From sequence record PZ540767.1: DNA of 64,000 nt. One strand, given 5' to 3'. A model generated the notes under the pieces. That model was not told the DNA's origin. It saw only the letters and a program-made list of their open reading frames with translations, and did no database searches. Position numbers and translations under genes: made by a program. Positions within the stretch are counted from its first letter, which is position 1. Each line of letters starts with the position of its first letter. Shown piece after piece: positions 5,876-53,710 of this stretch. The DNA comes from a phage.

Positions 5876-5878
5876 ATT

Positions 5879-5968
5879 TGGTGGAAGGTGAAGGATTCGA
5901 ACCTTCGGGCGCATCTCTGCACCTCCTGATTTCAAGTCAGGTACAATCGGCCTCTCTGACAACCTTCC
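5879..5968 (-). tRNA. tRNA-Ser (anticodon TGA), long variable arm
   Basis: Acceptor GGAAGGT/ACCTTCC, anticodon stem CCTGA/TCAGG with loop CTTGAAA, long variable arm, T-loop TTCGAAT, encoded CCA. Confidence 0.7.
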
Positions 5969-5974
5969 TAAATT

Positions 5975-6061
5975 TGGTGGGGGAAGATGGAGTTGAACCA
6001 CCCGAGCTTCTTAGGCAACAGATTTACAGTCTGTCCCGCTACCTCTACGGTCTATTCCCCC
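5975..6061 (-). tRNA. tRNA-Tyr (anticodon GTA), long variable arm
   Basis: Acceptor GGGGGAA/TTCCCCC, anticodon stem ACAGA/TCTGT with loop CTGTAAA, T-loop TTCAACT, encoded CCA. Confidence 0.6.
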
Positions 6062-6066
6062 GAATT

Positions 6067-6143
6067 TGGTCACCACGTAAGGATTCGAACCTTAGACACC
6101 TTGCTCCCAAAGCAAGTGCTCTACCAGACTGAGCTACGCAGTG
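6067..6143 (-). tRNA. tRNA-Pro (anticodon TGG)
   Basis: D-arm TAGCTCAGTCTGGTAGAGC, anticodon stem CTTGC/GCAAG with loop TTTGGGA, T-loop TTCGAAT, encoded CCA. Confidence 0.7.
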
Positions 6144-6209
6144 TAATTAGCCCTCTACTGTCGCCATCCAGTAATCCAGTTGGAATCGAACCAACACAGA
6201 GGGGTTATT

Positions 6210-6284
6210 TGGCGATGGGACTGGGACTCGAACCCAGCTGTCATAGATTAACAGTCTACCGCTTCACCGTTTAGCTATCCCATC
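6210..6284 (-). tRNA. tRNA-Asn (anticodon GTT)
   Basis: Acceptor GATGGGA/TCCCATC, anticodon loop CTGTTAA, T-arm CTGGG-TTCGAGT-CCCAG, encoded CCA. Confidence 0.6.
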
Positions 6285-18516: not shown

Positions 18517-18560
18517 TGAGGTTACAATCTGGGTACTCCACAATACTAAGGAATACTCAG

Positions 18561-27500: not shown

Positions 27501-29198
27501 GCACTGGTGAACATGGGATACCAAAAAGTATCCCCACTGTCCCAGGACTCTTTGTCAAAACACTCTGGACGTGTACTGTATGTGACCAAAGAGAATGGGT
27601 ATCAACGAACCGTCTCTGGTACTTTCAGTTTAACTGGAAGCCAGCGTAAAGGTTCTTCCCTAAGTGGGGATCGTGCTGTTGCTGATCGTGTTCGAGCTGA
27701 CGAGTTAGAACAGTTAAGGCAAGCGTCCTATGCAGACGTGCGAGGGCGTGAAGCACTGTCCCACACTGCCTTTGATCCTACTCAGATCCAGGATAACCAT
27801 GTAGTGCCTGTATTAAGCACTGATGGTCATATCATGGACTTCCGTTACATGGCTACCCACAATACTCGTGACACGTTCCTTGATCGTAATAATGACTTTG
27901 CTGACCTTGTTGGTCGTCTGGCTGGTCAGAATATCGATAAGGGTGATGCCCCAAGCCAGAATGCTAAGATCCTGGAAGCTCTGCATGAAGACTCTAAGGC
28001 TAATATCCTGAAGAATCCTAATGCTTACTTTGAGATTGGGCCTAATGCACCTACTGAGCGAGGACGTGAGATCTGGGCAATGATGCCTTATGAAGCACGT
28101 ACTAAAGCTACTTCTCTGTGGGGTGCTGATCGTATGTATATTCGAAACGATCTGGTTAACCTTACTTTTGGCTTCCGTAAGTATTCACTGGCTAACATTT
28201 TTGATGTTGATCCAGAACAGCGTAATATTGCTCAGGGTGTTGCTGCTGGTTTACTTGAAGCTGCTTTTGGTGATAAGGCTAAAGCTTATGTAATTAAGGG
28301 TGAGCGTGGCATTCAGGAATTTATGCAGTCCTATAAGGACGTGATCGTTATTCGTAACCTGAAAACCCAGTTCAGTAATATTATGTCTAATACTGCTCTA
28401 CTGGCTGCTTATGGCGTTAACCCGGTACGTATGGTTAAAGATATCCGTACTGCTCTGGTTGCTGGGATTGACTACCGTAAACAGTACTCGCTGCTACTCA
28501 AGTATCAGCAACAGCAACGTGCTGGTATTGGTAACTTTGCTCAGATGGAGTCCCTGATCAATGAGACGCAGGATCGCTTGAATGCTAACCCTCTGGCTAA
28601 GTTTATTCAGGCAGGTATGATGCCTACCATCGTAGAAGACGTTCAGCCTGATGCTGATGGTTACACTTATGGTTCTAAGATCCGTAAGAAATTTAATGAG
28701 GTATCTGCCCATCTGCCAGCTTCTGCTGTAACAGCTGCTCGCTGGGCTGTGATTGATAAAGGTACTGCACCTCATAAATTCTTAAGTGATGCTGCTCAGT
28801 TCAGTGACTTTGCTGCTAAGTATGCTCTGTATAAGCACCTGACAGAACATGCCCGAGATCGCCTGAGTCATACTGAGGCTTTACAACGTGCATCTGATGC
28901 TTTTGTTAACTATGACATTCCAGCTACAGCTACTCGCCAATATCTGGATGATATGGGGATTACCATGTTTACGAAGTATCGTGTTCGTATCCAACGTGCA
29001 ATGTTCTACTTGATGGATAAACGTCCAGCATCTGTTATGGCACATATGGCAATTACAGGGCAGTTTACTCATGCACCTGATGCTATGGAGCCACTGTTTG
29101 CACGTAACTTAGGTAACCCATTCACACCTTCAGTATTGCAGGGTGGGAGTTTGTTGAATGTCCCAATGCCTTGGAACTTATTCAGAATGGCATACTAA
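18561..29198 (+). CDS. virion-packaged RNA polymerase (N4 vRNAP-like giant protein)
   Basis: Single uninterrupted ORF of about 3,550 aa; ATG at 18561 has an AAGGA RBS (first in-frame ATG at 18516 lacks one); followed by terminator. Confidence 0.85.
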   Translation: MAGNSSPLDKFLVPQQVTGQEAAQALPAPTQPTIAQRVNDASTRILNNLTGQGMYPTEEGEIARLKRINNEQSAYAKEVAAKDSDYGWSSTNFLDPETSSLTDRTASTFVNYGKALTDAVNGLAGKTDKTFKTLGNVLDQASIPNDALDAYRRVQAGKGTEADNALLDRQGAWWTQPIEVNQYGVPEMGNQTLRQRLDAINERQKTQNQSSYDNLEKLANPVQMQQAAADIEKSIEGKSGLDKFAAGLAAIARNPGAAGQTMVESAPYMVGGIPGMLASSAMQGGSVLSQYLDTQRKASDGQIPTAKDVAIGTGLGVVDGALNFAESIINRTAMLPGSKVLPAGVADRLVNAAQRIAPRSSTAAAALARVTAPTLDLAKNALTEGLVSGAQNQIEENYAKGKNEWDTKGNDVAFFQGIAAATGFGAPRAALSTAGEVANTAAQAMQKRTEAQDPVGQAARNTTPEDLMNPQSEGYNPAAAIRRAGMEWTRNTDATTDEQKAEIQSQAQSAMDAAQNDHQNNLDMINQRATAERTLADAGKFIPAIQERLDQLSNDPNADPDAVNQLQTILAQQTEARDAAQQQLDAMPSQEELAQSATRSAEVLDQAKSEFGKFSSATGMNTNTAKPENPTASDIISHPMSYTNEDLQEFVRNAPANATPAELGTLRALADAKVAENAVKTGSKVNSEIFKSTSNNLSLGDYQQGINTAVQAGDTNRIQSLMTGINNFETSHTAKADIAQQYLNEAKQNGKSYQILKTSNGWELNTGKRLDAKAQAKNGGFTIHKGSTGLVNNIVNEAKAITATRQYMEGIATPSTNQNVTGSTEQVASPEAQPEGAATVAGETGAQEQQAQPTISPLTTRDIRAMDQATLEKVMATTQQAMSSDTNPVLARNLDALDREWTRRADVATNQNRGVDAPHRKLDDSFKPKAQENEIQRSQAETTTQTEHTQADIDNESTGSESQQTAPVNVDDVVTNTDTLTETQQDNVAHGALSIFGKVGESLKALREKALAEPKGLQNLVLTGFNQRVRPGFGSPLVAVKDFINTLKTAVDTGSFTEVNRFLKQHISESKAEGAKQKALLKQFVEFHDHITANLDNIIRTKAPEYRYQDFAQFILDENGNFDSNTKTGIAAGIFSWLGENGDKMFLNQSEVAKTLRIKEDQLTPQAMSRMADIGYRQDLIMSQLGQRIYQAMGFAKRADVDPNRASKLQNALGAYALHAMYSNGYMEQSLMTAKEYFDLQTMGLDEQSAKEAAQAFQNDFGVSPNDAKHKIVFSRPARNFDAEGKPVAIEAISDIKNGMKDTRSLMSKLFGYDPAVREVLTTKPAGFKQKVFGKMNREVPSVLAARISKAMQYDYTIDQGVVNAMRTMSTVDNAALQHIFGVRTDADVPNEMEIFKKGREAKNADIQRSMEMGLDFANRRGTNPFWMPMEVWTNQRIGDLASEFNPQGSKVHRAMGGLSAHQVEISVARNAPVLDADGKPTQYGLFLVSLAQGMEEAPVIGADGKKLKSVDKQTYATFLPAFQNYLRKPENIKAVRAMQKVIAGSATTADTNVIKNAVAEYGMNGQSFAALHNLAQYATALESGKSSVKLLAQMESDGVTNGPILTNILNGSADFDLLKRGGIYREGDNITNMPTYRELGGQDYYELLGDAMRQHWADYKTNAPASQQGQIQALEYFSTGYGARSKAKTLATPFNYSAGIPALKAAMGRATVEDVYSKIGSLIPLAKSNNKADFAKAYAEVSKNLSVLLGQKVNLPRTADGLVKFSLNPAQTKRIIDVDSQTRGVATETAVNEVAADFIASRDANTSLVNTTFTLANLRYNAAKAALLKKRIAEGKIPVDAKGAPLEGLTQADLDKLSRMIPNMPSATGVLSENTKASGYPMAKVEKAFTAKSPATSIDIYFKEAANPKPAMDANGMLLSQGLVGGYKSTQSTVTETKLTNPGVAMGANVTQGTDAAISSDVISKIESQNVHDANILSPDNVLKGARIQNKAMFDAVVSYHPQHLAASALLTEVRSLAGANLSTNDKVAAKKALEAMKTKILGKDFKGNMKAALNTILNQAYDRDIKKLETLSEVYAVNQYGTEGGEYLITDTDRKKIGDEIARLKRSRAAGLQRISAMFSKGNAPKAEANQYPDKMRQYLYEASASTGSVSASEVMARTKGKFANPVYNELHNLISGLIPADAVVNVLDGQTMPKNVKGQSLPQNRDAIAWSYQDKNTAQVNLSLSKEASPEVLLHELTHIALGRAIATADSNPKVKAVLARTEKLMGRVTKLVSADPQLTQKFAPALANVDEFISWGMTNPEFQRYLDTITGVPEISGRNRGWLGTAFKQFVDQMSGIFAAVTGRAINARVTTALEALTFDTAHLVQAINPTAIESPVSSISHPMSNTNSAADQVAKFSHVDIFDNLASTGGKTNSAQFTGNLRNVISTVADQLYGALGSRVTQNANENYTPGQVWNEAVATGKAPVSTEALSNGFVLTNQEAFAVEAIEAAVSESLASGFTSPVNREIRRTWQAAKQSLKPEDFHNGNWNQATQAEKRAAQQKWNYLFDVTNDSGESQHLSRFVAMAIGHEDTSNLLGFQMEDGKDSGNTAFEQATAYFNQAVNTVSGMLTNTHQGQAANARAQALAEKLIQIELKNRDTTMNILTGGIDKVENALDTAAAKSKQFLGKIVKATGIDQSSNNALNAMGKVAGLAARDQLGSLKETIKEFRDFNAPSTPEGSLASILTEATNADDVRALHESLLRSTKRIEQDRATLAAVTAKNLNEMFDNNGQDLTKEDRTAMTYSLLRTDLQSVLHIEGMNLNNLHKLVSNTGYRKQQINNLEKTISQYANGNDKIIRAKALGFWMATGRNTLGRDLVLNAKAIATGAATHYSTVGIEPTLDEVNAIDALASMYALSYTKTENRVRTAAVMERELARGKDNGIKMLMATYANLIEDSANTLFAGNQLSRIKGYLPEDTNPHHDLRAVESGSADEAALVNMGYQKVSPLSQDSLSKHSGRVLYVTKENGYQRTVSGTFSLTGSQRKGSSLSGDRAVADRVRADELEQLRQASYADVRGREALSHTAFDPTQIQDNHVVPVLSTDGHIMDFRYMATHNTRDTFLDRNNDFADLVGRLAGQNIDKGDAPSQNAKILEALHEDSKANILKNPNAYFEIGPNAPTERGREIWAMMPYEARTKATSLWGADRMYIRNDLVNLTFGFRKYSLANIFDVDPEQRNIAQGVAAGLLEAAFGDKAKAYVIKGERGIQEFMQSYKDVIVIRNLKTQFSNIMSNTALLAAYGVNPVRMVKDIRTALVAGIDYRKQYSLLLKYQQQQRAGIGNFAQMESLINETQDRLNANPLAKFIQAGMMPTIVEDVQPDADGYTYGSKIRKKFNEVSAHLPASAVTAARWAVIDKGTAPHKFLSDAAQFSDFAAKYALYKHLTEHARDRLSHTEALQRASDAFVNYDIPATATRQYLDDMGITMFTKYRVRIQRAMFYLMDKRPASVMAHMAITGQFTHAPDAMEPLFARNLGNPFTPSVLQGGSLLNVPMPWNLFRMAY

Positions 29199-44446: not shown

Positions 44447-44461
44447 TATATGAGGTTTATT

Positions 44462-44950
44462 ATGAAAATGTCGAATGAAGGACGCAAAGTAACTAAGTAT
44501 TTTGAGTCCCTTAAATTACGTGCTTACCCTGATCCTGCTACTGGGGGTAAACCATGGACTATTGGGTATGGTCATACTGGCCCAGATGTTTATCCTGGTT
44601 TGGCAATTTCGCAAACCAGAGCTGAACAGTTGCTTGATGCTGACCTTGCTAAGGCTGAAGCAGAAGTAAACAAGTATGGGCATAACCTTACCCAAGGTCA
44701 GTTCGATTGCCTTGTGGACATGGTATTTAATATGGGATCTGGTTTTATCCGGCCTGACAACATCAAGGGTGATTTTGATGACTTTGTTGCATCGGGTAAT
44801 ACTGCTGAGATGCGTAAACGTATTCCTCAATTCCGTATGGCCAACGGTAAAGTTATGAGAGGTTTAGTACGTCGTCGTGCTGCTAACCTTGCTACATGGG
44901 ACGGTAAGTCTGGTGATGAAGCAATTAAAATAGGGGTAAATGCTGCATGA
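44462..44950 (+). CDS. endolysin, GH24 T4-type lysozyme
   Basis: FESLKL...YPDPATGG...TIGYGHT catalytic E/D/T triad pattern and DCLVDMVFNMG motif; GAGG RBS before ATG 44462. Confidence 0.85.
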   Translation: MKMSNEGRKVTKYFESLKLRAYPDPATGGKPWTIGYGHTGPDVYPGLAISQTRAEQLLDADLAKAEAEVNKYGHNLTQGQFDCLVDMVFNMGSGFIRPDNIKGDFDDFVASGNTAEMRKRIPQFRMANGKVMRGLVRRRAANLATWDGKSGDEAIKIGVNAA

Positions 44951-45168
44951 AACTTGTAGAAAACTGGAAGTCAGCATGGAAGTGGTATTCTGTGCATATT
45001 ATGGTAGTGATCGTTGCACTTCCTGAAATCTGGAGTTACTTTCCACAGGAGTTTAAGGATTCATTACCTCCACATGCTCTTGCTGGATTAACAACTTTCC
45101 TGGGTATCTCAGCGATTGTTGCTCGTCTGGTTTCTCAGGAGAAACGTAATGATCAAGGATCTAATTAA
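44947..45168 (+). CDS. small membrane protein, candidate holin
   Basis: 73 aa; start overlaps endolysin stop (ATGA); two hydrophobic segments; inside lysis cassette. Confidence 0.45.
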   Translation: MKLVENWKSAWKWYSVHIMVVIVALPEIWSYFPQEFKDSLPPHALAGLTTFLGISAIVARLVSQEKRNDQGSN

Positions 45169-45658
45169 ACAGTATGCTGTTTTGTTAGGTTCTGTTCTGG
45201 CCCTGGCTTTACTTGCCGGGGCTTGTTACTTAACCTATGTTGTAACAGATAACCACTGGTCTGCTAAGTATTCTGGATTAGAACAGAAGTATAGTGATGC
45301 TTCTGCCAAAGCTACTCAGGAGGCCAGAGTCAAAGAATGGGAGTACCAAAACAATGTTGATGCAATCGCACAGCAAGGGGCTAAAGACCTCGCACAAGCT
45401 CGCTCTGACGCTGATATTGCCAATGCTTCTGTTAGCAGGTTGCAGCAACGGATCAACCGTTTACTTGCCAACACCAGCTCCGAAGATTCCGGCACTACCC
45501 AAAGAGGCAAGACAGCCAGAGAAGCCCTCGATCTGCTTGCCAACGTGCTCGAAAAATCTCTCGAACGAAACAGACAGTTGGCTGACTACGCCGACAAAGC
45601 CAGTAGTGCTGGATTCACCTGTGAAAAAGCCTACGACGCCATCCAATCAGGCAAGTAA
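45149..45658 (+). CDS. i-spanin (Rz-like)
   Basis: AGGAG RBS before ATG 45149; N-terminal TM helix then periplasmic coiled-coil region; an o-spanin-like ORF overlaps in another frame. Confidence 0.6.
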   Translation: MIKDLIKQYAVLLGSVLALALLAGACYLTYVVTDNHWSAKYSGLEQKYSDASAKATQEARVKEWEYQNNVDAIAQQGAKDLAQARSDADIANASVSRLQQRINRLLANTSSEDSGTTQRGKTAREALDLLANVLEKSLERNRQLADYADKASSAGFTCEKAYDAIQSGK

Positions 45659-45683
45659 TACTAAGTTGGTTTATTTCGTATAA
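45354..45683 (+). CDS. o-spanin (Rz1-like outer-membrane lipoprotein), out of frame within and past i-spanin
   Basis: Signal peptide ending in lipobox LLAGC, Pro-rich mature region; start is my best guess among in-frame ATGs. Confidence 0.5.
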   Translation: MLMQSHSKGLKTSHKLALTLILPMLLLAGCSNGSTVYLPTPAPKIPALPKEARQPEKPSICLPTCSKNLSNETDSWLTTPTKPVVLDSPVKKPTTPSNQASNTKLVYFV

Positions 45684-45734
45684 ACCAGTAGAATGATGTA
45701 CATTAACTAGACTTTTCATGAAGAGGAAACACCT

Positions 45735-46178
45735 ATGTCTAAAGTCCCCTCTATCGGTGCTGGTGTTATCACTACCGATGATGTGCTGGCACAAGGCTAT
45801 GATTTTATCCCCCTGAAAATGGGTGGTATGGCTAAAGTGCCTGCTGATGTAGCCGCTGCTCAATCTAAAGACGTCACTGGTGCTGCTTATACTAAACCAG
45901 CAGCTCTGAGTCTGACTACTGATCTGACTGCTACTAAATCTGTTGCTGAAGGTGCTGCCCTGGAACTGAAAGTAGTTCCTGCTGGCGGTGTTGCACCTTA
46001 CAGCGTTACCTGGTTTAAAGGTGGCTCTGCTATCCAGACTCTGGGTAGTTCTACCCTTAACCTGGGTGCAGCTACTCTGGATATGGCTGGCTCTTACCAT
46101 GCTGAAGTCTACGACGCAGCTGGTAAAGAGATTCAGTCTACTACCTGCGTAGTGACTGTCACTGAAGCTGGTGGTTAA
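45735..46178 (+). CDS. Ig-like domain capsid decoration protein (N4 gp17-like)
   Basis: 147 aa; GAGGAAA RBS; beta-sandwich-type pattern YSVTWFKGG...GSYHAEVYD...CVVTV; followed by terminator. Confidence 0.55.
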   Translation: MSKVPSIGAGVITTDDVLAQGYDFIPLKMGGMAKVPADVAAAQSKDVTGAAYTKPAALSLTTDLTATKSVAEGAALELKVVPAGGVAPYSVTWFKGGSAIQTLGSSTLNLGAATLDMAGSYHAEVYDAAGKEIQSTTCVVTVTEAGG

Positions 46179-46196
46179 TAGCTACCAGCATGAATA

Positions 46197-46220
46197 AGCC
46201 CCCATTTGGGGGCTTTTTTA
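46197..46220. terminator. rho-independent terminator, likely bidirectional
   Basis: AGCCCCC-ATTT-GGGGGCT hairpin followed by TTTTTT; lies between convergent plus and minus genes. Confidence 0.8.
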
Positions 46221-46406
46221 TTACCCTGTTAAACCTAAAAGGTTATCAGGATCCTTTACCGCCGTATCTTTGATAAAGGCAAAGGGAACGATGATCTTCC
46301 CGAAATGGAAGGCATTAGCACTTTCTACAATTTTATTTGCTTTGAAAGTGAGTGCACCATTATTTCTGAAAAAGATAGTTATCTCAGCTGGAATTTTGTC
46401 TGTCAT
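46221..46406 (-). CDS. small hypothetical protein (61 aa)
   Basis: Translationally coupled (ATGA overlap) to the upstream small ORF. Confidence 0.35.
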   Translation of the reverse strand: MTDKIPAEITIFFRNNGALTFKANKIVESANAFHFGKIIVPFAFIKDTAVKDPDNLLGLTG

Positions 46407-46633
46407 AGAGAGGCAATCCTGTGAGTTGCAGCCCTGATACGACTAATACGCTTAGTGTGTATTGTCTCATTTCTGTCGTAGCCTCGGGCATTTCTACGAA
46501 TGGTTTCACACTCTGCCCTATAGGCAGGAGTCTGAGTTTGTTTTTGTAGGATCTTAGAACATTTAGAGTGAACTCGTTTATTTCGTAAGATCCCACAGAT
46601 TGGACATACGTTAAATGTTGGACTGAAAATCAT
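46403..46633 (-). CDS. small basic Cys-containing protein, possible zinc ribbon
   Basis: 76 aa; CPICG near N-terminus, Arg/Lys-rich; start overlaps methyltransferase stop (ATGA); competing frame 46384..46596 judged less likely. Confidence 0.4.
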   Translation of the reverse strand: MIFSPTFNVCPICGILRNKRVHSKCSKILQKQTQTPAYRAECETIRRNARGYDRNETIHTKRISRIRAATHRIASL

Positions 46634-47436
46634 GGTTTTAGTACAGCAATGATATCTTTGGCTACTTCTCGTGATTCAGCTTTAGCTGAGATGCTACGAG
46701 TTGCAGTTAATGGGTGAATGTCAAAACCAGCTTTGGTATAGAGATCAACTAAACGTGGAGCACTACTATTTGTAATGACCACTCTTACACCTCTGGCTTT
46801 AAGCTCAAGAGCTTTACCTACCAGACGTTTCTGATCTCCCCACTTAAAGCTGGTGCCACTATAGCTTGTGAACCCCTGATGTTTAGGCATAGGCTCATAA
46901 GGTGGATCACAAAATACAACATTACCTTCCTCAGCAGTGTTCATAAATAACATGAAGTCTGTATTTGCTACTGTTGGTTTCAAACCAGAATTGATGAAAT
47001 CTCTGAGTTCCTGTTCAGGGAAGTAAGGTTGTTCTTTCTGGCCCCAAGGAACATTGAATTCCTTTTTCTTGTTGTAACGACACAGGCCATTAAAGCCAGT
47101 ACGATTGAGCACCAGGAAGAACACGGCTTTAGACAGGGAATTGAACTTACCACTGTTAAAGTTAGCCCTGAGCTGATTGTAGCGAGCTTCTGAGTTACAC
47201 CACTCATGCAGTTTCTTTGCCTGGTTCAATACATAATCACCATTATGGATGAGGGCTAAGTAGAGCTGGCATAGATCAGGATTTACATCATTGATAGCCA
47301 CCTTATCGAAACCAGCATTCATAAATACTGATCCTGCACCCACAAAAGGTTCAATGAGACGATTACCAACTAAGAATGGTTGGATTTGAGGAAGCTGGCG
47401 ATACTTGCCACCTGCCCACTTAAGCCAAGGTTTCAT
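46630..47436 (-). CDS. dam: Dam-like N6-adenine DNA methyltransferase
   Basis: 268 aa; N-terminal WAGGKYRQL, FVGAGSVF AdoMet-binding motif and catalytic DPPY motif. Confidence 0.85.
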   Translation of the reverse strand: MKPWLKWAGGKYRQLPQIQPFLVGNRLIEPFVGAGSVFMNAGFDKVAINDVNPDLCQLYLALIHNGDYVLNQAKKLHEWCNSEARYNQLRANFNSGKFNSLSKAVFFLVLNRTGFNGLCRYNKKKEFNVPWGQKEQPYFPEQELRDFINSGLKPTVANTDFMLFMNTAEEGNVVFCDPPYEPMPKHQGFTSYSGTSFKWGDQKRLVGKALELKARGVRVVITNSSAPRLVDLYTKAGFDIHPLTATRSISAKAESREVAKDIIAVLKP

Positions 47437-47545
47437 TTGAGCACCAATGCTAACAGGTTCATAACGAGTTCATTGGCTTGATAGGCCAAGAACCAGAAGG
47501 CACCCAGCAGTATTGCCAGTATGCACCACACTTTTCCGCGAAAGC

Positions 47546-47884
47546 TCATAAAATTCCTATCCTCTTTTTGAGTAAAATTTCAGCAGTTAAAGGGACTGAT
47601 ACTTGAACTTTGATGGGTAATACAACATCATCATAGATATCCCAGGCATCCCCTTCAGTAAGTGCTATCGTCCCTTCCCCTAACTCATTTAATACAATGA
47701 CTTGATCATGAGGGCAGTACCAGCTATCACTACGTTCTCGGAACATAATTACTGTTTTTTCTACTTCAATGAATTGGTCATTGAATATTGTAAAAGTGTC
47801 GTCTACCTCTACTCCTACTTCCCTGTTATTTAGCAGGATGATAATACCTGTAATAGTAGTTAGATCCATTGCAGTAATCTGCAT
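47546..47884 (-). CDS. hypothetical protein
   Basis: ATG at 47884 with GGAGGGG RBS (ORF track begins at a TTG at 47896). Confidence 0.45.
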   Translation of the reverse strand: MQITAMDLTTITGIIILLNNREVGVEVDDTFTIFNDQFIEVEKTVIMFRERSDSWYCPHDQVIVLNELGEGTIALTEGDAWDIYDDVVLPIKVQVSVPLTAEILLKKRIGIL

Positions 47885-47896
47885 GATCCCCTCCAA

Positions 47897-47920
47897 TGAA
47901 AAAGCCCTCCGAAGAGGGCT
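47897..47920 (-). terminator. rho-independent terminator
   Basis: AGCCCTC-CGAA-GAGGGCT hairpin with T-tract on the minus strand. Confidence 0.55.
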
Positions 47921-47925
47921 TGAGG

Positions 47926-48249
47926 TTACTTAGGTGAACCTGTGTAGGACGTCTTGCCTTCAAACAGCCTTTCTACATACTGGAAGATCTTAATCCCCAG
48001 ATAGGCAGATGCTGAAGTGAATATGGGTTGCGTAATCCCAGTAGGCAACTGACTTGCCACTACAGGGTAGGCATCCCATGCCAAATAGCCTGCGAGTAGA
48101 GCTGCTGACATTTCTGTAGCTGCTGCAACGAAGGTTACCTGACCATAGCGTAGGATTCGTCTCCCAACGGAGATTGCACCACTGACAGTACTAATCAGGA
48201 GAGCACCCAGTAGCTGAACATAAAAGTTCTGTTGCTGATCTGGGGTCAT
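47926..48249 (-). CDS. membrane protein with three predicted TM segments
   Basis: ATG at 48249 with GGAG RBS; hydrophobic segments throughout. Confidence 0.45.
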   Translation of the reverse strand: MTPDQQQNFYVQLLGALLISTVSGAISVGRRILRYGQVTFVAAATEMSAALLAGYLAWDAYPVVASQLPTGITQPIFTSASAYLGIKIFQYVERLFEGKTSYTGSPK

Positions 48250-48294
48250 GACACTACTCCAATTCACTTACATGAAATGGATTGTAACGTTAAT

Positions 48295-48669
48295 TTACTT
48301 TGAATGCTCAGAATTATCTGACCATAAACTAGCAAATTTAGCGTTGATCGCTTTCATGAACCCTTTCTGGTTATGGTTACGAAGACGTAGACGACTAAAG
48401 TTAATCTCATGAAGACCTTTAGTAATCCCTTTAAGGTTCTCAACAAAGATAGCCTTGTCAGGTTCTTCTTGTACCAATGTGACTTTCTGGTTTAGAAAGT
48501 ACAACTGACCATTAAGCAACGTCCAGAAACCAGTGCATTGATACACACTCTCAGCCACTGGAGCACCCATAATTATCTGGCTTGCCAGTGATGTGATGCT
48601 CTCAGGGCATTCAAGGTATAACCCTACCTCTGGTTTAAGGTACTTGAGTTCAATGTTAAGTTTTACCAT
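48295..48669 (-). CDS. hypothetical protein (124 aa)
   Basis: GAGGA RBS; start overlaps stop of the HAD-like gene. Confidence 0.45.
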   Translation of the reverse strand: MVKLNIELKYLKPEVGLYLECPESITSLASQIIMGAPVAESVYQCTGFWTLLNGQLYFLNQKVTLVQEEPDKAIFVENLKGITKGLHEINFSRLRLRNHNQKGFMKAINAKFASLWSDNSEHSK

Positions 48670-49163
48670 GGATCCTCTACGCTAAACTTGGGCACCAAGA
48701 TAGCGCTGACGTTAGGCAGGTATTTTCTGACTTTATTAATGACAGATTTGTCATCATCGATCAGGAAAATTTCTACTTTATCCATCGTAGTCATGGCACC
48801 CATGCAAAACATTGGGATCAGTGACAGCAATGCTTCCAGTTTGAAGTTAGCTGCACTTCCACCCAGATTTTCACTGCGGTTATGGAGTAAGTCGAAGATA
48901 AGATTACCTTCTTCTTTGAAACGATCGTTTGTTTCTTTATCCAGAACTTTGCTACGGTTAGACAGACTAATCAGAACTGAATCCTGATTAATCAGCGATT
49001 TAACCATTTCAATACCTTTATGGTTCAAAGGCTCTAAGATCCAGGCTTTATGCCAATCAAGCCACTCGTGCTGGTTTGATGGGTCTTTGGGGATGTACTG
49101 CTTTCGAAACTCACTGTTACCGTTTAGAACTCCGTCCAGGTCACAGAAGATCAGTCTACGCAT
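48663..49163 (-). CDS. HAD-superfamily phosphatase, possibly deoxyribonucleotidase-like
   Basis: N-terminal IFCDLDGVLNG matches HAD motif I (DxDGV); AGAGG RBS; start overlaps DNA polymerase stop. Confidence 0.55.
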   Translation of the reverse strand: MRRLIFCDLDGVLNGNSEFRKQYIPKDPSNQHEWLDWHKAWILEPLNHKGIEMVKSLINQDSVLISLSNRSKVLDKETNDRFKEEGNLIFDLLHNRSENLGGSAANFKLEALLSLIPMFCMGAMTTMDKVEIFLIDDDKSVINKVRKYLPNVSAILVPKFSVEDPW

Positions 49164-51780
49164 GTGATGCCTCTTTTTGTTTTAGCTTATCCAGTGCTTT
49201 AGCCACAAAGGGCTTTATATCATCTTCTGCGAGGTTGTTAGGCAGAGTGATAGCATTGGCCCAGTTGGGATAATACAAGTCCAGTTCAGCTGGCAGAGGG
49301 ATTCGTGGATCAGCAATTTCAGGTAAACCTTTCCATGCCATACACTCGATCAAGTTGTCATTAACAAACTTGATTACCCTTACGTTGTTACGCATCAGCA
49401 CATAGATAGCATCATGAATCAGAGCCACAGGCAGAATGTCATAACGAAACTCTGAAGCCCACACACGCTCCATGAACTCATTAGCAGCACGGTTGGTTAA
49501 CAGACCATAAGACTGACCTGAGATAGCATTGCCTAATGTACGTCCCTCAGCTTCAGCTTCACGTAGCGTCTTGGTGGTATCCAGGATCGAACGTGCAAGG
49601 AGCGGGGTACGAATACGCAGCCCAAAGGCAGCAGTGGCATAGCCGTCATTACAGGCTTGTCTGATGCGTTCTTTAACCCATTCACCCGATACAGCATAGA
49701 GTGCATGGAAACTGGCTTCAGTTTCTTTGGCTTCCTCTTCAGAGAAACCACAGTTCTTAACCAGGGTAATCCAGGTGCCTTGATACTGAAGTGCAAAGCT
49801 TGGTGCTTTAGACTTATTACGTAGCGGGTAGTATGGGTGATCCTTTTCAGCTATCTGGTTTACAGAAGCTGGATCATTAATGTCGATATCCGGCATTAAC
49901 TTGGCACCCCAATAGCCCACAGCACGTAACGAGTGACCGTCGAAGCCATCCGTGAACACTTTGACCTTGTTAGGATCTTGTGTTAACAGTGCATTGATAC
50001 GATCTTCCAGAGCATTAAAGTCTGCTCCACCGAATACCCAACCATCGGGTGCAGCAAAGCATTTCTTGATGAGTTTACCGAAGGTACTCCCAGAAGGTAG
50101 CTGCTGTAGGTTTGGATCCGATGAGCTTAATCGCCCTGATACTGTACCACCCAGGTTGAAGTTACCATGAAGGTAAGATCTTCCATTACCTTTGTTGAAG
50201 GCATTTTTAAAGGTGGGTATAAAACTGGTGAGGATCTTCTCACCGTCTCCAAACTCACGAAGAGTTTTGAGTACTATCTTTCCACTTTCAGTAGCATGGT
50301 TTTCCAGCTTCTTAAGTGTTGCACCAGCCGTAGATGGCTGCTTGGTTTTGGTTCTGTCCAGCACAGGAAGTTTCATCACTTCATAAAGTAAAGTGATCAG
50401 ATGGTTGCCACTATTAGGGTTAAACTTAAGGTGACTGAAAGCACTGAGAGGGTACTGTTTAGTCTTCAGAGTGGCATTCTTAGCTTCCATTGCTCTGGTT
50501 TGAATAAGCAATTCTGCTTTCTGAACCAGGGGGTGTGCATACAAAGTTTTAAGACTTCGATCATGCAATTCCTGTAATTGCTTCTCTGCCTTATCCACCA
50601 TAGCGGGGATCATAGGCATACCAGTAAGTTCAATCTGGGTGATTGTCTTCTGGCTTGGCATCATCAGGTATTTATACAGCTCAAGCTGCATATCACGAAC
50701 CATAACAGGGTAATACTTGTTATAGACGTACCAGGTAGACATGGTATCGATGATGTTATAGCGGAGCAGTTCAGGCAGGGGGATCACCAGGATATTGGTA
50801 ATATCAGACATAGCCCAGTTACCTGCAAATTCATGAGCAAGCTGTTTCAAGCTCAGTTCATTTTTTGCAGTATTGTTCAGTGCGAGATAAGCAATGATGC
50901 GAGTATCATCACAATCTCGATAGAGACAATCCAGGCCACGCAGTAAACCTTCATTATCCAGGGGATCTTTCATCCAGAGGTTATAGATCAGGACTTTGGT
51001 ATCAAAGTTAGCCCTGTGGAATTTCAGGTTACCCTTATATTCCTCAAAGAACTTACGCAGCTTAATACGAAAGCCTTCGTTAAACCAACGGTAGTTTTCC
51101 CCTTCACTTACTGCAAGGTCACAGGTAAATGCTATACCGCCTGTATTATCAGGGCTGAAAGCAATAGTACCAATGCCAGCAGTAAAGATATCAAGACTGA
51201 AAGTTTCGATATCACAGGTCAGCTTAGGGTAAGACATTAACTTGGCAAATGCCTCGTCAATTTCCTTTTCAGTCTGGGGATACAAAGCCCATTTCAGGAT
51301 ATCAGCACCCAAAGCTTTATAGCTGTTGGTTACCTTACCTGCTAAGGCTTGCACAGACATTTCCAGTTTATCTGCCTGGTTTGGGTTATAGAGTAGAGCC
51401 TGATAGTTAATACCTACCAGTATTTCAATATCCTCGTACCCCGGTATTGAACAGGGAGTGCCATAACCGATCATTGCATCGATCTTGGCATTCTTAACCA
51501 GACACTTAAAGTAAGTGGAGTCAGCACAGTAAATGTACTTAACACCCATCTTCTTAAGCTGAGGGAGAATTTTAGCCAGATAATCCTTACAGAACTTGGC
51601 TGGAGCTTTACCATTGGATTCATACTCTAGCGAAAACGCCAGAATGTTCTCTTTGGCATAGCCAGCTTCGACTAAAGGATTAACGTAGTGACGCTCAATC
51701 TGATCCTGATAGAAAGCAGACTCTTTGATGAGTATTGCTGTCTCGAATTCAGGTTTATGAGCGAACATGATATGACGCAT
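49156..51780 (-). CDS. DNA polymerase, family A
   Basis: 874 aa; exonuclease-like CDIETFSLD near N-terminal half; polymerase-type FGGADFNALEDR, KAPSFALQYQG and HDAIY in C-terminal half. Confidence 0.85.
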   Translation of the reverse strand: MRHIMFAHKPEFETAILIKESAFYQDQIERHYVNPLVEAGYAKENILAFSLEYESNGKAPAKFCKDYLAKILPQLKKMGVKYIYCADSTYFKCLVKNAKIDAMIGYGTPCSIPGYEDIEILVGINYQALLYNPNQADKLEMSVQALAGKVTNSYKALGADILKWALYPQTEKEIDEAFAKLMSYPKLTCDIETFSLDIFTAGIGTIAFSPDNTGGIAFTCDLAVSEGENYRWFNEGFRIKLRKFFEEYKGNLKFHRANFDTKVLIYNLWMKDPLDNEGLLRGLDCLYRDCDDTRIIAYLALNNTAKNELSLKQLAHEFAGNWAMSDITNILVIPLPELLRYNIIDTMSTWYVYNKYYPVMVRDMQLELYKYLMMPSQKTITQIELTGMPMIPAMVDKAEKQLQELHDRSLKTLYAHPLVQKAELLIQTRAMEAKNATLKTKQYPLSAFSHLKFNPNSGNHLITLLYEVMKLPVLDRTKTKQPSTAGATLKKLENHATESGKIVLKTLREFGDGEKILTSFIPTFKNAFNKGNGRSYLHGNFNLGGTVSGRLSSSDPNLQQLPSGSTFGKLIKKCFAAPDGWVFGGADFNALEDRINALLTQDPNKVKVFTDGFDGHSLRAVGYWGAKLMPDIDINDPASVNQIAEKDHPYYPLRNKSKAPSFALQYQGTWITLVKNCGFSEEEAKETEASFHALYAVSGEWVKERIRQACNDGYATAAFGLRIRTPLLARSILDTTKTLREAEAEGRTLGNAISGQSYGLLTNRAANEFMERVWASEFRYDILPVALIHDAIYVLMRNNVRVIKFVNDNLIECMAWKGLPEIADPRIPLPAELDLYYPNWANAITLPNNLAEDDIKPFVAKALDKLKQKEASHA

Positions 51781-51803
51781 AGCCTACCTCTCTAGTGGCA
51801 TAC

Positions 51804-51827
51804 GAAAGAAAAGGGGCCGAAGCCCCT
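51804..51827 (-). terminator. rho-independent terminator
   Basis: AGGGGC-CGAA-GCCCCT hairpin with T-tract on the minus strand. Confidence 0.55.
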
Positions 51828-51832
51828 CGGTA

Positions 51833-53710
51833 CTACTTAAGCCAGGTTTTCAGTTCATCACTGACTTTCGGATCAAGTCCGAATGCTTTTGGCCCTTTCT
51901 TACGAGAGGACATGAAGAACTGGAGTTCCCCTGCTGCATCTTTGGTGTCAGCACGGTTACCTTTGGCTTTAGTCTCTTTGAAGACACGATACAGCTCTTG
52001 TGCCTGCTCTTTGACTGTCATAGCCTTACCTTCTGGTTTAGCTGGAGATTCAGCTTTTGTTTCAGGAGTAGTGACTTTGATATCACTGGCTTCACGAATG
52101 GACAGGATCAGCTCTGCATCTTCATCAGAGATGCCCAGTTTAGCCCAGCCTTTCTTAGCTTTCTGTTTGGCAGAGATTAATTCCTCTGCAAACTTCTGGG
52201 CAGTAGCCAGATCTTCAGCCAGATAAGCAGCTTCAAATTGCTCCCAAAGGAGGTCAATTTTAGTCTTCTTGATTTCAGGGGCAATAACTGGGGCAGGTTC
52301 TTTCAGATCAGCAGCCAACACTGGCGATACTTTTTCAGTAGGTGCTGCTTCTGACAGATCAGATTGTTCCAGTGTTTCCTTAACCAGATCTACTTTTACT
52401 TCTTCAGCTTTTGCTGTTTCAGTATTTTCGACCTTGGTATAGGTTACATTGCTGCCATTGTGACCACCCACTTCAACCAGTTCAGTAATGCCCACATGAG
52501 CACCACGCAGAACTTTGTTCAGCAGCTCTTTACCCTCTGGGATAGAAGAAATAGAGCCACCACTGTTAACGTGGTTACGCAGCGATTCAGGCAGTACAGC
52601 AAGGATGTGGTAACCACATACACGCATTTTAGTGCGGCTGTATTCTGGTACAGCAAAGACGTCTTCAGGACGTACTTTAGCCATCACAGTGACGTTACCA
52701 GGGAAGCTGCTGAGATAGCCCAGGGAAGCTACATGGAGGCCATTAGAGCAGTCCTGACGGCGGTTAGGATCTACCAGACCTGGTTTCATGAAGACATAGG
52801 AACCCACATTCTGTTTGATGTTCCCGGAATGAACATCCACGAAAGTTCCATGCTTCTCTTTGAGACGTTTGTAGATAACGATACAGCCGTCATCTGCAAT
52901 AGGAAGATCACCATGTTCGATGAACTTCATCAGGTCTTCAGCAGAGTGACCACGATCTTTCAGAACAGGTTCCAGACGGTTCAGGAAGTTTACGAAGCCA
53001 CGGAAATCCTTCAGCTTACTTGCTGCTTTCATCTGAGATGATAGCTTGTGAGCATGAGGAATCACACTACCTGTCTTGGTGTTGACTGCCACAATGGTAT
53101 CAGGATCTTCATCCGTGATAGGTTTGTGGAAATCAGGATCATCAACAGTACTACCTTTGCCTGCAAGCTCGCGCATACGGGCTGTAGCCAGATCGATTTT
53201 CTGATCATTGGTGAGTTCTGCTGGTTTGGTTACCTCATTTGCAGGGGCTTCAACTACTTCTTTCAATGCTTCTAGGGCTTCTTCTGCTTCTACTGCCGCA
53301 GATGGAGCTTCCAAAGCATAAGTGAGGTCATCAGCTTCCTCTACATCCAGAATGGTCTGGCCTGGCTTGATACCCAGTTCCAGTGGCGAGATGTGAGCAA
53401 CACTCTCATCCACCTTTTCAGGGGATTCAGTGTCGATGAACTTTTTGACGAAACTTTTGGCAACACGGAAGAACTTGATAAGTCCCCCAGTGCCTTCTTC
53501 AGTTTCTTTGAACTCATTGCGTACCTTGATAGGTTCTGCAATGTCTACAACCGCAGAGCCATCCACAGGGATGTACTTTTTGGCTGTTTCGACGATGTTC
53601 GGCAAACGAGGATCACCCTGTGCAATGGTCACAGTACTGCCATCCTCTAAATAGAGGACAGCATTCTGAGCATCGACAGAGATTCCTACGATGGTCACTA
53701 GTTTTTTCAT
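51833..53710 (-). CDS. rIIB: rIIB-like protein
   Basis: 625 aa; start overlaps stop of rIIA-like gene (ATGA); assignment by position and pairing, no diagnostic motif recognised. Confidence 0.45.
   Translation of the reverse strand: MKKLVTIVGISVDAQNAVLYLEDGSTVTIAQGDPRLPNIVETAKKYIPVDGSAVVDIAEPIKVRNEFKETEEGTGGLIKFFRVAKSFVKKFIDTESPEKVDESVAHISPLELGIKPGQTILDVEEADDLTYALEAPSAAVEAEEALEALKEVVEAPANEVTKPAELTNDQKIDLATARMRELAGKGSTVDDPDFHKPITDEDPDTIVAVNTKTGSVIPHAHKLSSQMKAASKLKDFRGFVNFLNRLEPVLKDRGHSAEDLMKFIEHGDLPIADDGCIVIYKRLKEKHGTFVDVHSGNIKQNVGSYVFMKPGLVDPNRRQDCSNGLHVASLGYLSSFPGNVTVMAKVRPEDVFAVPEYSRTKMRVCGYHILAVLPESLRNHVNSGGSISSIPEGKELLNKVLRGAHVGITELVEVGGHNGSNVTYTKVENTETAKAEEVKVDLVKETLEQSDLSEAAPTEKVSPVLAADLKEPAPVIAPEIKKTKIDLLWEQFEAAYLAEDLATAQKFAEELISAKQKAKKGWAKLGISDEDAELILSIREASDIKVTTPETKAESPAKPEGKAMTVKEQAQELYRVFKETKAKGNRADTKDAAGELQFFMSSRKKGPKAFGLDPKVSDELKTWLK

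What the first reader, a model, noticed from the sequence alone, without database searches (positions are those of the whole stretch)
46221..49163. Accessory block of unknown proteins and a HAD-like phosphatase upstream of DNA polymerase
Between dam and the polymerase lie three unknown proteins, a three-TM membrane protein and a HAD-motif phosphatase whose stop overlaps the polymerase start. A deoxyribonucleotidase-like enzyme co-transcribed with the polymerase could tune dNMP/dNTP pools or remove modified nucleotides.
Basis: inference. Interest (0 to 1): 0.4.

Follow-up and report, generated by a model that had tools for sequence, protein, structure and literature searches.

The report
Stand-alone Pnkp-type phosphatase after phage polymerase
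This is an ordinary accessory gene block at the end of the replication operon of an N4-like Klebsiella phage. Its "HAD" gene is a real, probably active phosphatase, but it lies downstream of the DNA polymerase, not upstream, and it most resembles the 3'-phosphatase half of T4 polynucleotide kinase rather than a dNMP nucleotidase.

Summary
The window is an Efbeekayvirus-like N4-type Klebsiella phage, 92-93% identical to cp20, FBKp27 and GADU21. All genes in 46221-49163 are real and lie on the minus strand. The transcription order is rIIB, DNA polymerase, HAD, X (124 aa), a 107-aa membrane protein, a terminator, a 112-aa protein, a 38-aa protein, Dam, a 76-aa protein, a 61-aa protein, and a bidirectional terminator.

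The HAD start overlaps the polymerase stop (ATGCGTAG), so the block is downstream of the polymerase.

The HAD protein keeps all four HAD motifs across 22 diverse relatives (D8, D10, S/T68, K108, D136/D137). It also keeps two arginines that align with T4 Pnkp R176 and R213. Its family profile best matches the phosphatase domains of Pnkp1 (5e-13) and T4 Pnkp (6e-9). Sixteen of the 22 relatives hit Pfam HAD_PNKP, and none hit the NT5C deoxyribonucleotidase family.

The protein has no kinase domain, and no ligase is annotated in the closely related FBKp27 genome. The most likely role is a Mg-dependent 3'-phosphomonoesterase acting on DNA ends or 3'-dNMPs in the replication module. The substrate is unproven.

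The order pol, HAD, X, membrane protein, Dam is conserved in several N4-like lineages. Interest is low to moderate.

The parts
49156..51780 (-). Family A DNA polymerase (874 aa). This is the gene immediately upstream in transcription. Its stop codon overlaps the HAD start codon.
   Evidence: Pfam DNA_pol_A 6.7e-38; phrog_17 2.3e-143; junction sequence ATGCGTAG.
48663..49163 (-). Stand-alone HAD phosphatase (166 aa) of the Pnkp-phosphatase / acid-phosphatase-B clade. Motif I is D8-x-D10, motif II is S68, motif III is K108 and motif IV is D136-D137. R20 and R70 are also invariant. Compared with T4 Pnkp there is a 13-residue insert that carries conserved P25 and W34.
48295..48669 (-). Protein X (124 aa), of unknown function. 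It is translationally coupled to HAD through an ATGGTAA overlap. The predicted fold is eight beta strands plus a C-terminal helix. All homologues traced to a long contig or a named phage lie in N4-like phages, and in every locus examined X sits directly after the HAD gene.
47926..48249 (-). Conserved 107-aa membrane protein with two clear and one weak hydrophobic segments. It is labelled 'holin' by PHROG transfer, but it lies outside the lysis cassette. It is 100% identical in the closest relatives listed.
   Evidence: phrog_6854 1.3e-28; hydropathy; tblastn finds it in 121 phage records, including the N4-like LIT1 and LUZ7; it follows rIIA-rIIB in LIT1 and LUZ7; 0 non-synonymous changes.
47902..47921 (-). 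Intrinsic-terminator-like hairpin (AAGCCCTCTTCGGAGGGCTT followed by TTTC). It splits the block into pol-HAD-X-membrane and p112-p38-Dam-p76-p61.
   Evidence: the same site is annotated as a terminator in FBKp27.
47546..47884 (-). Acidic (pI 4.2), fast-evolving 112-aa protein of unknown function.
   Evidence: Non-synonymous codons outnumber synonymous ones against both relatives (13 vs 9 and 30 vs 17).
47433..47549 (-). 38-aa hydrophobic peptide. Its start overlaps the stop of p112, and its stop overlaps the start of dam (ATGA in both cases).
   Evidence: It is annotated in phage Tribble and called in L021.
46630..47436 (-). Dam-family N6-adenine DNA methyltransferase (268 aa) with a DPPY motif.
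   Evidence: Pfam MethyltransfD12 3.3e-47; TIGR00571 219.7 bits against a cutoff of 114.85; DPPY read in the translation.
46403..46633 (-). Very basic (pI 10.9) 76-aa protein with CxxC...HxxC. It is widespread in phage records of Escherichia, Klebsiella, Erwinia and Shigella, including N4-like phages. Function unknown.
   Evidence: phrog_6887 9.6e-13.
46221..46406 (-). 61-aa protein of unknown function, the last gene of the minus-strand operon.
   Evidence: Third-position-biased divergence 4/1/21; annotated in Tribble.
46196..46215 (.). Bidirectional terminator hairpin between the minus-strand replication operon and the converging plus-strand late genes.
   Evidence: annotated on both strands in FBKp27.

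Best explanation
The block is the 3' end of the replication (N4 'middle'-type) operon of an N4-like Klebsiella phage.

Its HAD gene encodes a small, stand-alone, Mg2+-dependent aspartyl-phosphate phosphomonoesterase. It is a divergent relative of the 3'-phosphatase domain of T4 polynucleotide kinase-phosphatase, with no kinase domain attached. By analogy with T4 Pnkp:
- D8 is the nucleophile that forms the acyl-phosphate intermediate.
- D10 is the general acid/base.
- S68 and K108 hold the phosphate.
- D136/D137 hold the metal.

The most likely substrates are 3'-phosphomonoesters of deoxynucleotides or of DNA strand ends. The enzyme would restore 3'-OH ends usable by the polymerase encoded immediately upstream, or it would clear 3'-dNMPs.

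The gene is translated in tandem with the polymerase and with a partner of unknown fold (X). It belongs to a module, pol-HAD-X-membrane protein-Dam, that is conserved in several enterobacterial N4-like lineages.

Shown: the gene order, the overlaps, the catalytic-residue conservation, the family relationship and the synteny. Inferred: catalytic activity, the 3'-phosphate specificity and the DNA-end role.
For: Identity and gene order.

HAD motifs: they are invariant in 22 sequences that are 22-33% identical to the query, apart from one close relative at 75%.

Sequence relationship:
- The family profile against PDB sequences gives Pnkp1 4xrp 5.3e-13, T4 Pnkp phosphatase 5uj0 6e-9 and 1ltq 7.7e-8, ahead of class C acid phosphatase at 2.8e-7.
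- The alignment places D8/D10/R20 on T4 D165/D167/R176, S68/R70 on S211/R213, K108 on K258 and D136/D137 on D277/D278.
- 16 of 22 relatives hit Pfam PF25109 HAD_PNKP, best 1.2e-24.
- The window protein itself hits phrog_415 at 2.1e-14.

Residue roles and 3'-dTMP hydrolysis by T4 Pnkp: PMC3592404.

Context:
- The neighbours with a family assignment in the loci examined are DNA replication, modification or repair genes: polymerase, helicase, VRR_NUC, RNase H, DNA ligase, adenine methyltransferases and Nmad5, apart from a DUF6378 protein and lysis genes (a DUF2514 spanin and a lysozyme) in L025/L026. None is an RNA ligase or a kinase.
- The pol-HAD-X-membrane-Dam order is conserved in CB3, L008, L018-L021 and L030.
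- The coding signal is under purifying selection.
Against: - The window protein itself does not reach any Pfam HAD_PNKP hit at E<=0.1. It shows only weak HAD_SAK_2 and Acid_phosphat_B matches, so the link to Pnkp goes through its relatives.
- The family differs from T4 Pnkp. It has a 13-residue insert between motif I and the E44/N47 region. The position aligned to T4 Asp254 is Pro in most members and Ala in this protein. I recall Asp254 as essential in T4, but I could not check that from the papers held.
- HAD enzymes are notoriously promiscuous, and substrate cannot be read from sequence.
- The model is only moderate in quality (pLDDT 70).
- No experiment exists for any member of this subfamily in the literature I could search.
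Confidence: 0.5

Rival explanations
1. The enzyme would be a 5'-(deoxy)nucleotidase, like mitochondrial/cytosolic dNT or class B/C acid phosphatases. It would trim dNMP pools or remove unwanted or modified dNMPs.
Against: There is no match to the NT5C deoxyribonucleotidase family. The Pnkp-type domains score better than the acid phosphatases. The 'nucleotidase' labels are unverified similarity transfers.
Confidence: 0.2
2. The enzyme would heal RNA ends as in T4. It would remove 2',3'-cyclic or 3'-phosphates from tRNAs cut by host anticodon nucleases, as a counter-defence.
For: The closest solved relatives, T4 Pnkp and Pnkp1, are RNA-repair enzymes, and HAD_SAK_2 is an RNA-repair HAD domain. 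The phage carries a tRNA cluster. In other phages, viral tRNAs rescue infection from tRNA-targeting defence (PARIS; abstract listed).
Against: There is no 5'-kinase domain in the protein. No RNA ligase or polynucleotide kinase is annotated anywhere in the FBKp27 genome. No RNA-repair neighbour appears in any context examined. Removing the 3'-phosphate alone would block, not help, host RtcB-type ligation (my inference from the RtcB chemistry named in PMC3592404).
Confidence: 0.1
3. The enzyme would be a phosphatase for a non-nucleic-acid substrate, such as a sugar phosphate, a lipid-linked phosphate or a phosphoprotein, unrelated to replication. It would sit here only because accessory genes collect at the ends of operons.
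For: HAD folds accept many substrates. Foldseek's top hit is the Lem4 HAD domain, and many sugar phosphatases score similarly. The block does contain fast-evolving accessory genes.
Against: The pol-HAD-X order is conserved across N4-like lineages whose HAD proteins share only about 30% identity with this one. In siphoviruses the gene again sits in the DNA-metabolism module. Sequence affinity is highest to nucleic-acid phosphatases.
Confidence: 0.1

Closest known systems
T4 polynucleotide kinase-phosphatase (Pnkp), C-terminal 3'-phosphatase domain (PDB 1LTQ, 5UJ0; Pfam PF25109 HAD_PNKP)
   Same: It shares the DxDxT acyl-phosphatase chemistry. The aligned equivalents are D165/D167/R176/S211/R213/K258/D277/D278. 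The domain size is similar, at about 145 vs 166 aa. Both are phage-encoded (PMC3592404).
   Different: There is no N-terminal 5'-kinase domain and no partner RNA ligase. There is a 13-residue insert carrying conserved Pro and Trp after motif I. The position aligned to T4 Asp254 is not acidic. The window protein itself is below Pfam's threshold for the family.
Pnkp1 of the bacterial Pnkp1-Rnl-Hen1 RNA repair complex (PDB 4XRP)
   Different: Pnkp1 is a 312-aa kinase-phosphatase that works with a ligase and Hen1. None of these partners is found next to this gene.
Class B/C bacterial acid phosphatases and plant VSP (Pfam PF03767 Acid_phosphat_B; PDB 2I33, 3PCT, 4FYP)
   Different: Those proteins are larger (chains of 258-263 aa). 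To my knowledge they are secreted or lipoprotein enzymes. This one is 166 aa, and I see no N-terminal hydrophobic signal in its sequence. Profile scores are lower than for the Pnkp domains.
Stand-alone DNA 3'-phosphatases of the PNK3P family (yeast Tpp1, mammalian PNKP phosphatase domain; Pfam PF08645)
   Same: This is a functional analogy for what I propose: a HAD enzyme that removes blocking 3'-phosphates from DNA ends. Two of the 22 relatives give weak PNK3P hits.
   Different: It is only a marginal sequence relative. The analogy rests on my own knowledge of Tpp1 and was not tested here.
   Same: Same HAD superfamily and same DxD chemistry.
   Different: There is no detectable family-level match for this protein or for any of its 21 relatives.

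Membership tests
HAD superfamily phosphatase | Motif I DxDx(T/V) at the end of strand 1 | tested here: met
   The motif reads F6-C-D8-L-D10-G-V12. D8 and D10 are invariant in 22 sequences.
HAD superfamily phosphatase | Motif II Ser/Thr, motif III Lys, and motif IV acidic pair | tested here: met
   S68 is Ser or Thr in all 22 rows, K108 is invariant, D136 is at least 90% conserved and D137 is invariant.
HAD superfamily phosphatase | Rossmann-like alpha/beta core fold | tested here: met
HAD superfamily phosphatase | Mg-dependent phosphatase activity through an aspartyl-phosphate intermediate | not testable with these tools
   This needs purified protein and D8N/D10N mutants.
Pnkp-type polynucleotide 3'-phosphatase domain (PF25109 HAD_PNKP) | Significant match of the protein to the family model | tested here: inconclusive
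   The window protein has no PF25109 hit at E<=0.1. However, 16 of 22 relatives hit it, best 1.2e-24, and the family profile hits solved Pnkp phosphatase domains at 5e-13 to 8e-8.
Pnkp-type polynucleotide 3'-phosphatase domain (PF25109 HAD_PNKP) | Two arginines aligned with T4 R176 and R213, beside the HAD motifs | tested here: met
   R20 and R70 are invariant and align to R176 and R213. That these are essential in T4 is my recollection of Wang & Shuman 2002, a paper not held here.
Bifunctional polynucleotide kinase-phosphatase (the label 'polynucleotide kinase' used in some GenBank records) | N-terminal P-loop 5'-kinase domain | tested here: not met
   The protein is 166 aa and the HAD core runs from residue 2 to about 156. 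There is no GxxxxGK[ST] in the sequence and no kinase family in Pfam or NCBIfam. The 'polynucleotide kinase' label is a misnomer.
T4-style RNA repair system | Partner RNA ligase in the genome or neighbourhood | tested here: not met
   No ligase or kinase is annotated in the whole FBKp27 genome. None appears in the neighbourhoods examined, apart from one DNA ligase 4 kb away in L028.
NT5C-type 5'(3')-deoxyribonucleotidase | Match to PF06941 | tested here: not met
   It is absent at E<=0.1 for the protein and at E<=0.01 for all 22 family members.
Holin (label on the 107-aa membrane protein) | Small protein with at least one transmembrane segment | tested here: met
   Hydrophobic segments at 8-29 and 38-58, plus a weaker third one; phrog_6854 'holin' 1.3e-28.
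Holin (label on the 107-aa membrane protein) | Encoded in the lysis cassette next to the endolysin and spanins | tested here: not met
   The cassette (endolysin 44450-44950, 73-aa two-TM holin 44947-45168, spanin 45116-45658) is on the opposite strand. In the related CB phages the holin assigned is the one beside the endolysin (PMC6027278). The 107-aa gene instead follows rIIA-rIIB or the polymerase.
Holin (label on the 107-aa membrane protein) | Forms membrane holes that release endolysin at a set time | not testable with these tools
   This needs a complementation or lysis assay.
Dam-family N6-adenine DNA methyltransferase | Family model above the curated cutoff, and the DPPY catalytic motif | tested here: met
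   TIGR00571 219.7 bits against a cutoff of 114.85; PF02086 3.3e-47; 'FCDPPYEP' in the translation. GATC specificity was not tested.

The most novel reading that the evidence does not exclude
This HAD subfamily may be functionally tied to phage N6-adenine DNA methylation rather than to the polymerase.

In N4-like phages the HAD gene lies at most four genes upstream of a D12-class Dam. In unrelated siphoviruses it lies at most three genes downstream of a PF05869-type Dam. These are Dhillonvirus, a Guernseyvirinae phage and two metagenomic contigs. In one contig it directly follows an Nmad5 'nucleotide modification' protein.

The enzyme could dephosphorylate N6-methyl-deoxyadenosine nucleotides released from methylated DNA. 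A 2026 preprint (10.64898/2026.01.15.699771) reports m6-dAMP as the trigger of a bacterial PUA-Cal-HAD defence. Alternatively it could heal 3'-phosphate breaks made at modified DNA. Either way it would act as a counter-defence or a pool-sanitising enzyme.

Probability: 0.1. Interest if true: 0.7.

Novelty: new member of a known kind. Interest (0 to 1): 0.3.

Why it matters
In practical terms, this result cleans up the annotation. The same protein is labelled 'HAD family hydrolase', 'polynucleotide kinase', 'putative avirulence protein' or 'hypothetical' in near-identical phages that are being studied for therapy. The kinase and avirulence labels are wrong.

Biologically, a kinase-less Pnkp-type phosphatase translated in tandem with the replicative polymerase points to an unexplored step in N4-like phage replication. 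That step could be cleaning 3'-phosphate ends or removing 3'-nucleotides. A conserved partner protein (X) of unknown fold goes with it.

If the recurrent linkage to adenine methyltransferases is functional, the enzyme could connect to the new field of modified-nucleotide sensing in anti-phage defence. As it stands, the block is an ordinary accessory module of a known phage genus.

Tried and rejected
1. TAL-effector / 'avirulence protein' relationship. phmmer against PDB gives AvrBs3/PthA at 4.8e-10, but that score is the sum of 16 weak repeat matches, each at most 6.4 bits, to residues about 97-151. I rejected it as a repeat-summation artefact. It probably explains the RefSeq note in FBKp27.

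2. 'Toxin' label over X in phage K17alpha62. The CDS coordinates of that record do not coincide with the ORFs, so the annotation is out of register. I ignored it.

3. Defence and anti-defence libraries. PADLOC gave nothing meaningful for any of the seven small proteins.

4. RNA elements. Rfam found no hit in 45500-52000 at E<=0.1.

7. Context sampling. The search for related loci with the diverse HAD alignment failed because no stretch was conserved enough. With the X alignment it returned only near-identical phages. I sampled context instead with the look-up of encoding contigs.

8. Primary mutagenesis papers for T4 Pnkp (PMC2761019, PMC100346) are not held. The statements about R176, R213 and D254 therefore rest on my memory.

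9. Sigma-70 promoter scan. It found fewer sites than in shuffled sequence (11 vs 15.9) and is uninformative for an N4-type phage.
Full report
WHAT THE WINDOW IS. The 2.9-kb region is 92-93% identical over its full length to Klebsiella phages cp20, pKP-BM327-1.2, GADU21 and FBKp27. FBKp27 is the type of genus Efbeekayvirus, family Schitoviridae, the N4-like phages. The window also carries the hallmark 3560-aa ORF at 18516-29198. This corresponds to the gene annotated as virion RNA polymerase in FBKp27.

CHECK OF THE OBSERVATION. All genes of the finding are on the minus strand. In transcription order they are:
- rIIB-like, 53710-51833
- a terminator-like hairpin, 51828-51811
- family A DNA polymerase, 51780-49156
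- HAD, 49163-48663
- X (124 aa), 48669-48295
- a 107-aa membrane protein, 48249-47926
- a terminator hairpin, 47921-47902
- p112, 47884-47546
- p38, 47549-47433
- Dam, 47436-46630
- p76, 46633-46403
- p61, 46406-46221
- a bidirectional terminator, 46196-46215, facing the plus-strand late genes (Hoc-like protein, spanin, holin, endolysin)

The orientation is reversed. The polymerase ends ...S-H-A-stop and the HAD begins M-R-R-L within the shared ATGCGTAG. The HAD START overlaps the polymerase STOP, and the block is downstream of the polymerase. HAD/X (ATGGTAA), p112/p38, p38/Dam, Dam/p76 and p76/p61 (ATGA) also overlap, which is the usual signature of translational coupling.

The ORFs are not chance. 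Against FBKp27 and Tribble the differences fall mainly on third codon positions for every gene except p112: polymerase 8/0/84, HAD 7/2/43, X 4/1/11, membrane protein 0/0/7, Dam 4/3/39, p61 4/1/21. Only p112 evolves fast, with non-synonymous codons outnumbering synonymous ones.

THE HAD PROTEIN. Direct library hits are weak in Pfam: HAD_SAK_2 at 3.9e-4 and Acid_phosphat_B at 5.3e-3, both below cutoff. The hit in PHROGs is clear: phrog_415, labelled 'polynucleotide kinase', at 2.1e-14.

The word-indexed protein search found only six close relatives. An exhaustive HMMER search of 1.84 billion representatives found only 24 clusters at E<=1e-3, so this is a small, divergent lineage.

In an alignment of 22 of these sequences (22-33% identical to the query, apart from one close relative at 75%) the invariant columns are D8, D10, R20, P25, W34, R70, K108 and D137. 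T78 and D136 are at least 90% conserved, and position 68 is Ser or Thr in every row. These residues are the four HAD motifs plus two arginines.

A profile of this alignment searched against all PDB sequences gives these results:
- Pnkp1 (4XRP): 5.3e-13
- isolated T4 Pnkp phosphatase domain (5UJ0): 6e-9
- full T4 Pnkp (1LTQ): 7.7e-8
- class C acid phosphatase (2I33): 2.8e-7
- plant VSP (4FYP): 9e-6

In those alignments D8/D10/R20 fall on T4 D165/D167/R176, S68/R70 on S211/R213, K108 on K258 and D136/D137 on D277/D278.

According to PMC3592404, D165 is the phosphoryl acceptor and D167 is the general acid/base. S211 and K258 contact the phosphate, and D165, D278 and the D167 carbonyl bind Mg2+. 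T4 Pnkp turns over 3'-dTMP at 24 per second but does not hydrolyse 3'-rNMPs.

Scanning each of the 22 family members against Pfam, 16 hit PF25109 (HAD_PNKP, best 1.2e-24) and 16 hit Acid_phosphat_B. None hits the NT5C deoxyribonucleotidase family.

Differences from T4 Pnkp:
- The protein is only 166 aa. It has no P-loop motif and no kinase family hit.
- The segment between R20 and E44 is 13 residues longer than in T4. It carries the family-invariant P25 and W34 and a mostly aromatic position 37.
- The column aligned with T4 D254 is Pro in most members and Ala in this protein.

My inference, not tested here, is that the Trp-bearing insert acts as a small cap and determines specificity.

WRONG LABELS IN RELATIVES. 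The same protein is called 'HAD family hydrolase' (GADU21), 'polynucleotide kinase' (Tribble), 'putative avirulence protein' (FBKp27 RefSeq) or 'hypothetical'. The kinase label fails because there is no kinase domain. The avirulence label most likely comes from a TAL-effector hit, which I reproduced at 4.8e-10. That hit is the sum of 16 repeat matches of at most 6.4 bits each, so it is an artefact.

CONTEXT AND SYNTENY. No RNA ligase or polynucleotide kinase is annotated in the FBKp27 genome. It does carry ThyX, ribonucleotide reductase, MazG, nucleases, primase, SSB, a Sak4-like annealing protein, Gam and RuvC.

The order rIIB, polymerase, (0-2 small ORFs), HAD, X, a 106-114-aa membrane protein, (0-2 small ORFs), D12-class Dam, small ORFs, then the converging lysis cassette recurs in:
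- Pectobacterium phage CB3, genus Cbunavirus. Pairwise similarity there is HAD 31%, X 28% at E 1e-9, and membrane protein 45% at E 2e-27.
- Five metagenomic N4-like contigs: L008, L018, L019, L020 and L021.
- A more distant 75-kb contig, L030. Its gene after the HAD is an X homologue by hhalign (88.5%, E 2.7e-6), and its membrane protein is 45% identical.

In every X-containing locus examined, X directly follows the HAD. All 28 X homologues come from metagenome assemblies. Those on long contigs or in named phages are N4-like. The HAD itself also occurs without X in siphoviruses (Dhillonvirus, Guernseyvirinae), again inside the DNA-metabolism module.

The membrane protein is more widespread than the HAD. 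It is present in 121 phage records. In the N4-like Pseudomonas phages LIT1 and LUZ7 it follows rIIA-rIIB without any HAD or polymerase between.

THE OTHER PROTEINS.
- The 107-aa membrane protein matches phrog_6854 'holin' at 1.3e-28. A complete lysis cassette lies on the other strand: a GH24-type endolysin, a 73-aa two-TM holin and a spanin pair. In the CB phages the holin assigned by the authors is the one next to the endolysin (PMC6027278). The 'holin' label is therefore unproven. The protein is 100% conserved among the closest relatives.
- p112 is acidic (pI 4.2) and fast-evolving. p38 is a single hydrophobic helix. p76 is very basic with CxxC...HxxC and is common in phage records of Escherichia, Klebsiella, Erwinia and Shigella, including N4-like phages. 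p61 has no relatives outside the genus.
- Dam is secure: TIGR00571 at 219.7 bits against a cutoff of 114.85, plus the DPPY motif. The related CB phages have adenine-methylated DNA by restriction analysis (PMC6027278).

HOW IT MOST LIKELY WORKS. The following are shown:
- a catalytically complete HAD core
- closest kinship to polynucleotide 3'-phosphatase domains
- tandem, overlapping translation units with the replicative polymerase
- conserved placement among DNA replication and modification genes

The following are inferred. The enzyme forms an Asp8-phosphate intermediate with Mg2+. It removes 3'-phosphates from DNA ends, giving 3'-OH ends that the polymerase and host ligase can use, and/or from 3'-dNMPs.

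I give about 0.85 to 'active HAD phosphomonoesterase of the Pnkp / acid-phosphatase-B clade' and about 0.5 to the 3'-phosphate / DNA-end reading as a whole.

COMPARISON AND NOVELTY. It probably works like the phosphatase half of T4 Pnkp, or like stand-alone DNA 3'-phosphatases such as yeast Tpp1. The Tpp1 analogy rests on my own knowledge and was not tested here. It is not a bifunctional Pnkp, and it is not a member of the NT5C deoxyribonucleotidase family. The window protein itself falls below Pfam's HAD_PNKP threshold, so membership of that family is shown only for its relatives.

Near-identical genes are already public. I found no experimental work on this subfamily. I rate it a new, uncharacterised member of a known kind, with low to moderate interest.

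A LEAD WORTH RECORDING. This HAD subfamily is repeatedly close to an N6-adenine methyltransferase of two different Pfam families. In the N4-like phages it is PF02086, downstream of the HAD. In Dhillonvirus, phage Otaku and contigs L027 and L029 it is PF05869, upstream of the HAD. In contig L028 the HAD overlaps the stop of an Nmad5 protein.

Because synteny is inherited within each group, this amounts to perhaps two or three independent associations. It is suggestive, not demonstrated. GATC is also 1.9-fold over-represented in the window: 404 sites against 215 +/- 15 in shuffles. A 2026 preprint reports that Dam-derived m6-dAMP triggers a bacterial dNTP-depleting defence (10.64898/2026.01.15.699771). 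A phage phosphatase that removes such nucleotides would be an attractive counter-measure, but nothing here tests that.

Noticed in passing
window 46630-49163; loci L004, L023, L024, L027, L029, L028: The HAD subfamily lies within four genes or fewer of an N6-adenine DNA methyltransferase in unrelated phage groups. In N4-likes it is the D12 class (PF02086). In siphoviruses it is the PF05869 Dam type. In one contig it directly follows an Nmad5 nucleotide-modification protein. This may be a functional link, or it may be shared placement at the end of replication modules.
   Followed up: partly
window 1-64000: GATC occurs 404 times against 215 +/- 15 in dinucleotide-preserving shuffles, about 1.9-fold over-represented. 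This is in a phage that encodes its own Dam methylase.
   Followed up: no
window 5799-6284 (minus strand): There is a cluster of five tRNA genes: Gln-TTG, Ser-TGA, Tyr-GTA, Pro-TGG and Asn-GTT. The relative FBKp27 has six, with Asp in addition.
   Followed up: no
window 47546-47884 (minus strand): The 112-aa protein is acidic (pI 4.2) and evolves much faster than its neighbours. Non-synonymous codon changes outnumber synonymous ones against two relatives. This pattern is often seen in host-interaction or anti-defence proteins.
   Followed up: partly
window 47926-48249 (minus strand); L005, L006: The 107-aa membrane protein labelled 'holin' is 100% identical in the closest relatives listed. It is found in 121 phage records, including the N4-like LIT1 and LUZ7, where it follows rIIA-rIIB. 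It lies outside the real lysis cassette (44450-45683, plus strand). A role connected with the rII-like proteins or with lysis timing is possible but untested.
   Followed up: partly
window 48663-49163: Third-codon-position divergence of the HAD gene from FBKp27 and Tribble is about 26%, against about 9-10% in the flanking polymerase and X genes. This hints at local recombination or mosaicism at this gene.
   Followed up: no
NC_068555.1 gp39; OY979417.1 (L007): Two public annotation problems. The FBKp27 RefSeq note 'putative avirulence protein' reproduces a TAL-repeat summation artefact. The CDS table of phage K17alpha62 is out of register with the actual ORFs, with 'toxin' and 'N4-like RNA polymerase' over this block.
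   Followed up: yes
L003 (Pectobacterium phage CB3) 1906-4617: The 903-aa CB3_050 'hypothetical protein' occupies the slot of the 903-aa family A DNA polymerase in the syntenic loci L008, L018 and L019. The gene annotated as 'DNA polymerase I' just upstream sits where rIIB lies in those loci. This looks like a probable annotation shift in that record.
   Followed up: no
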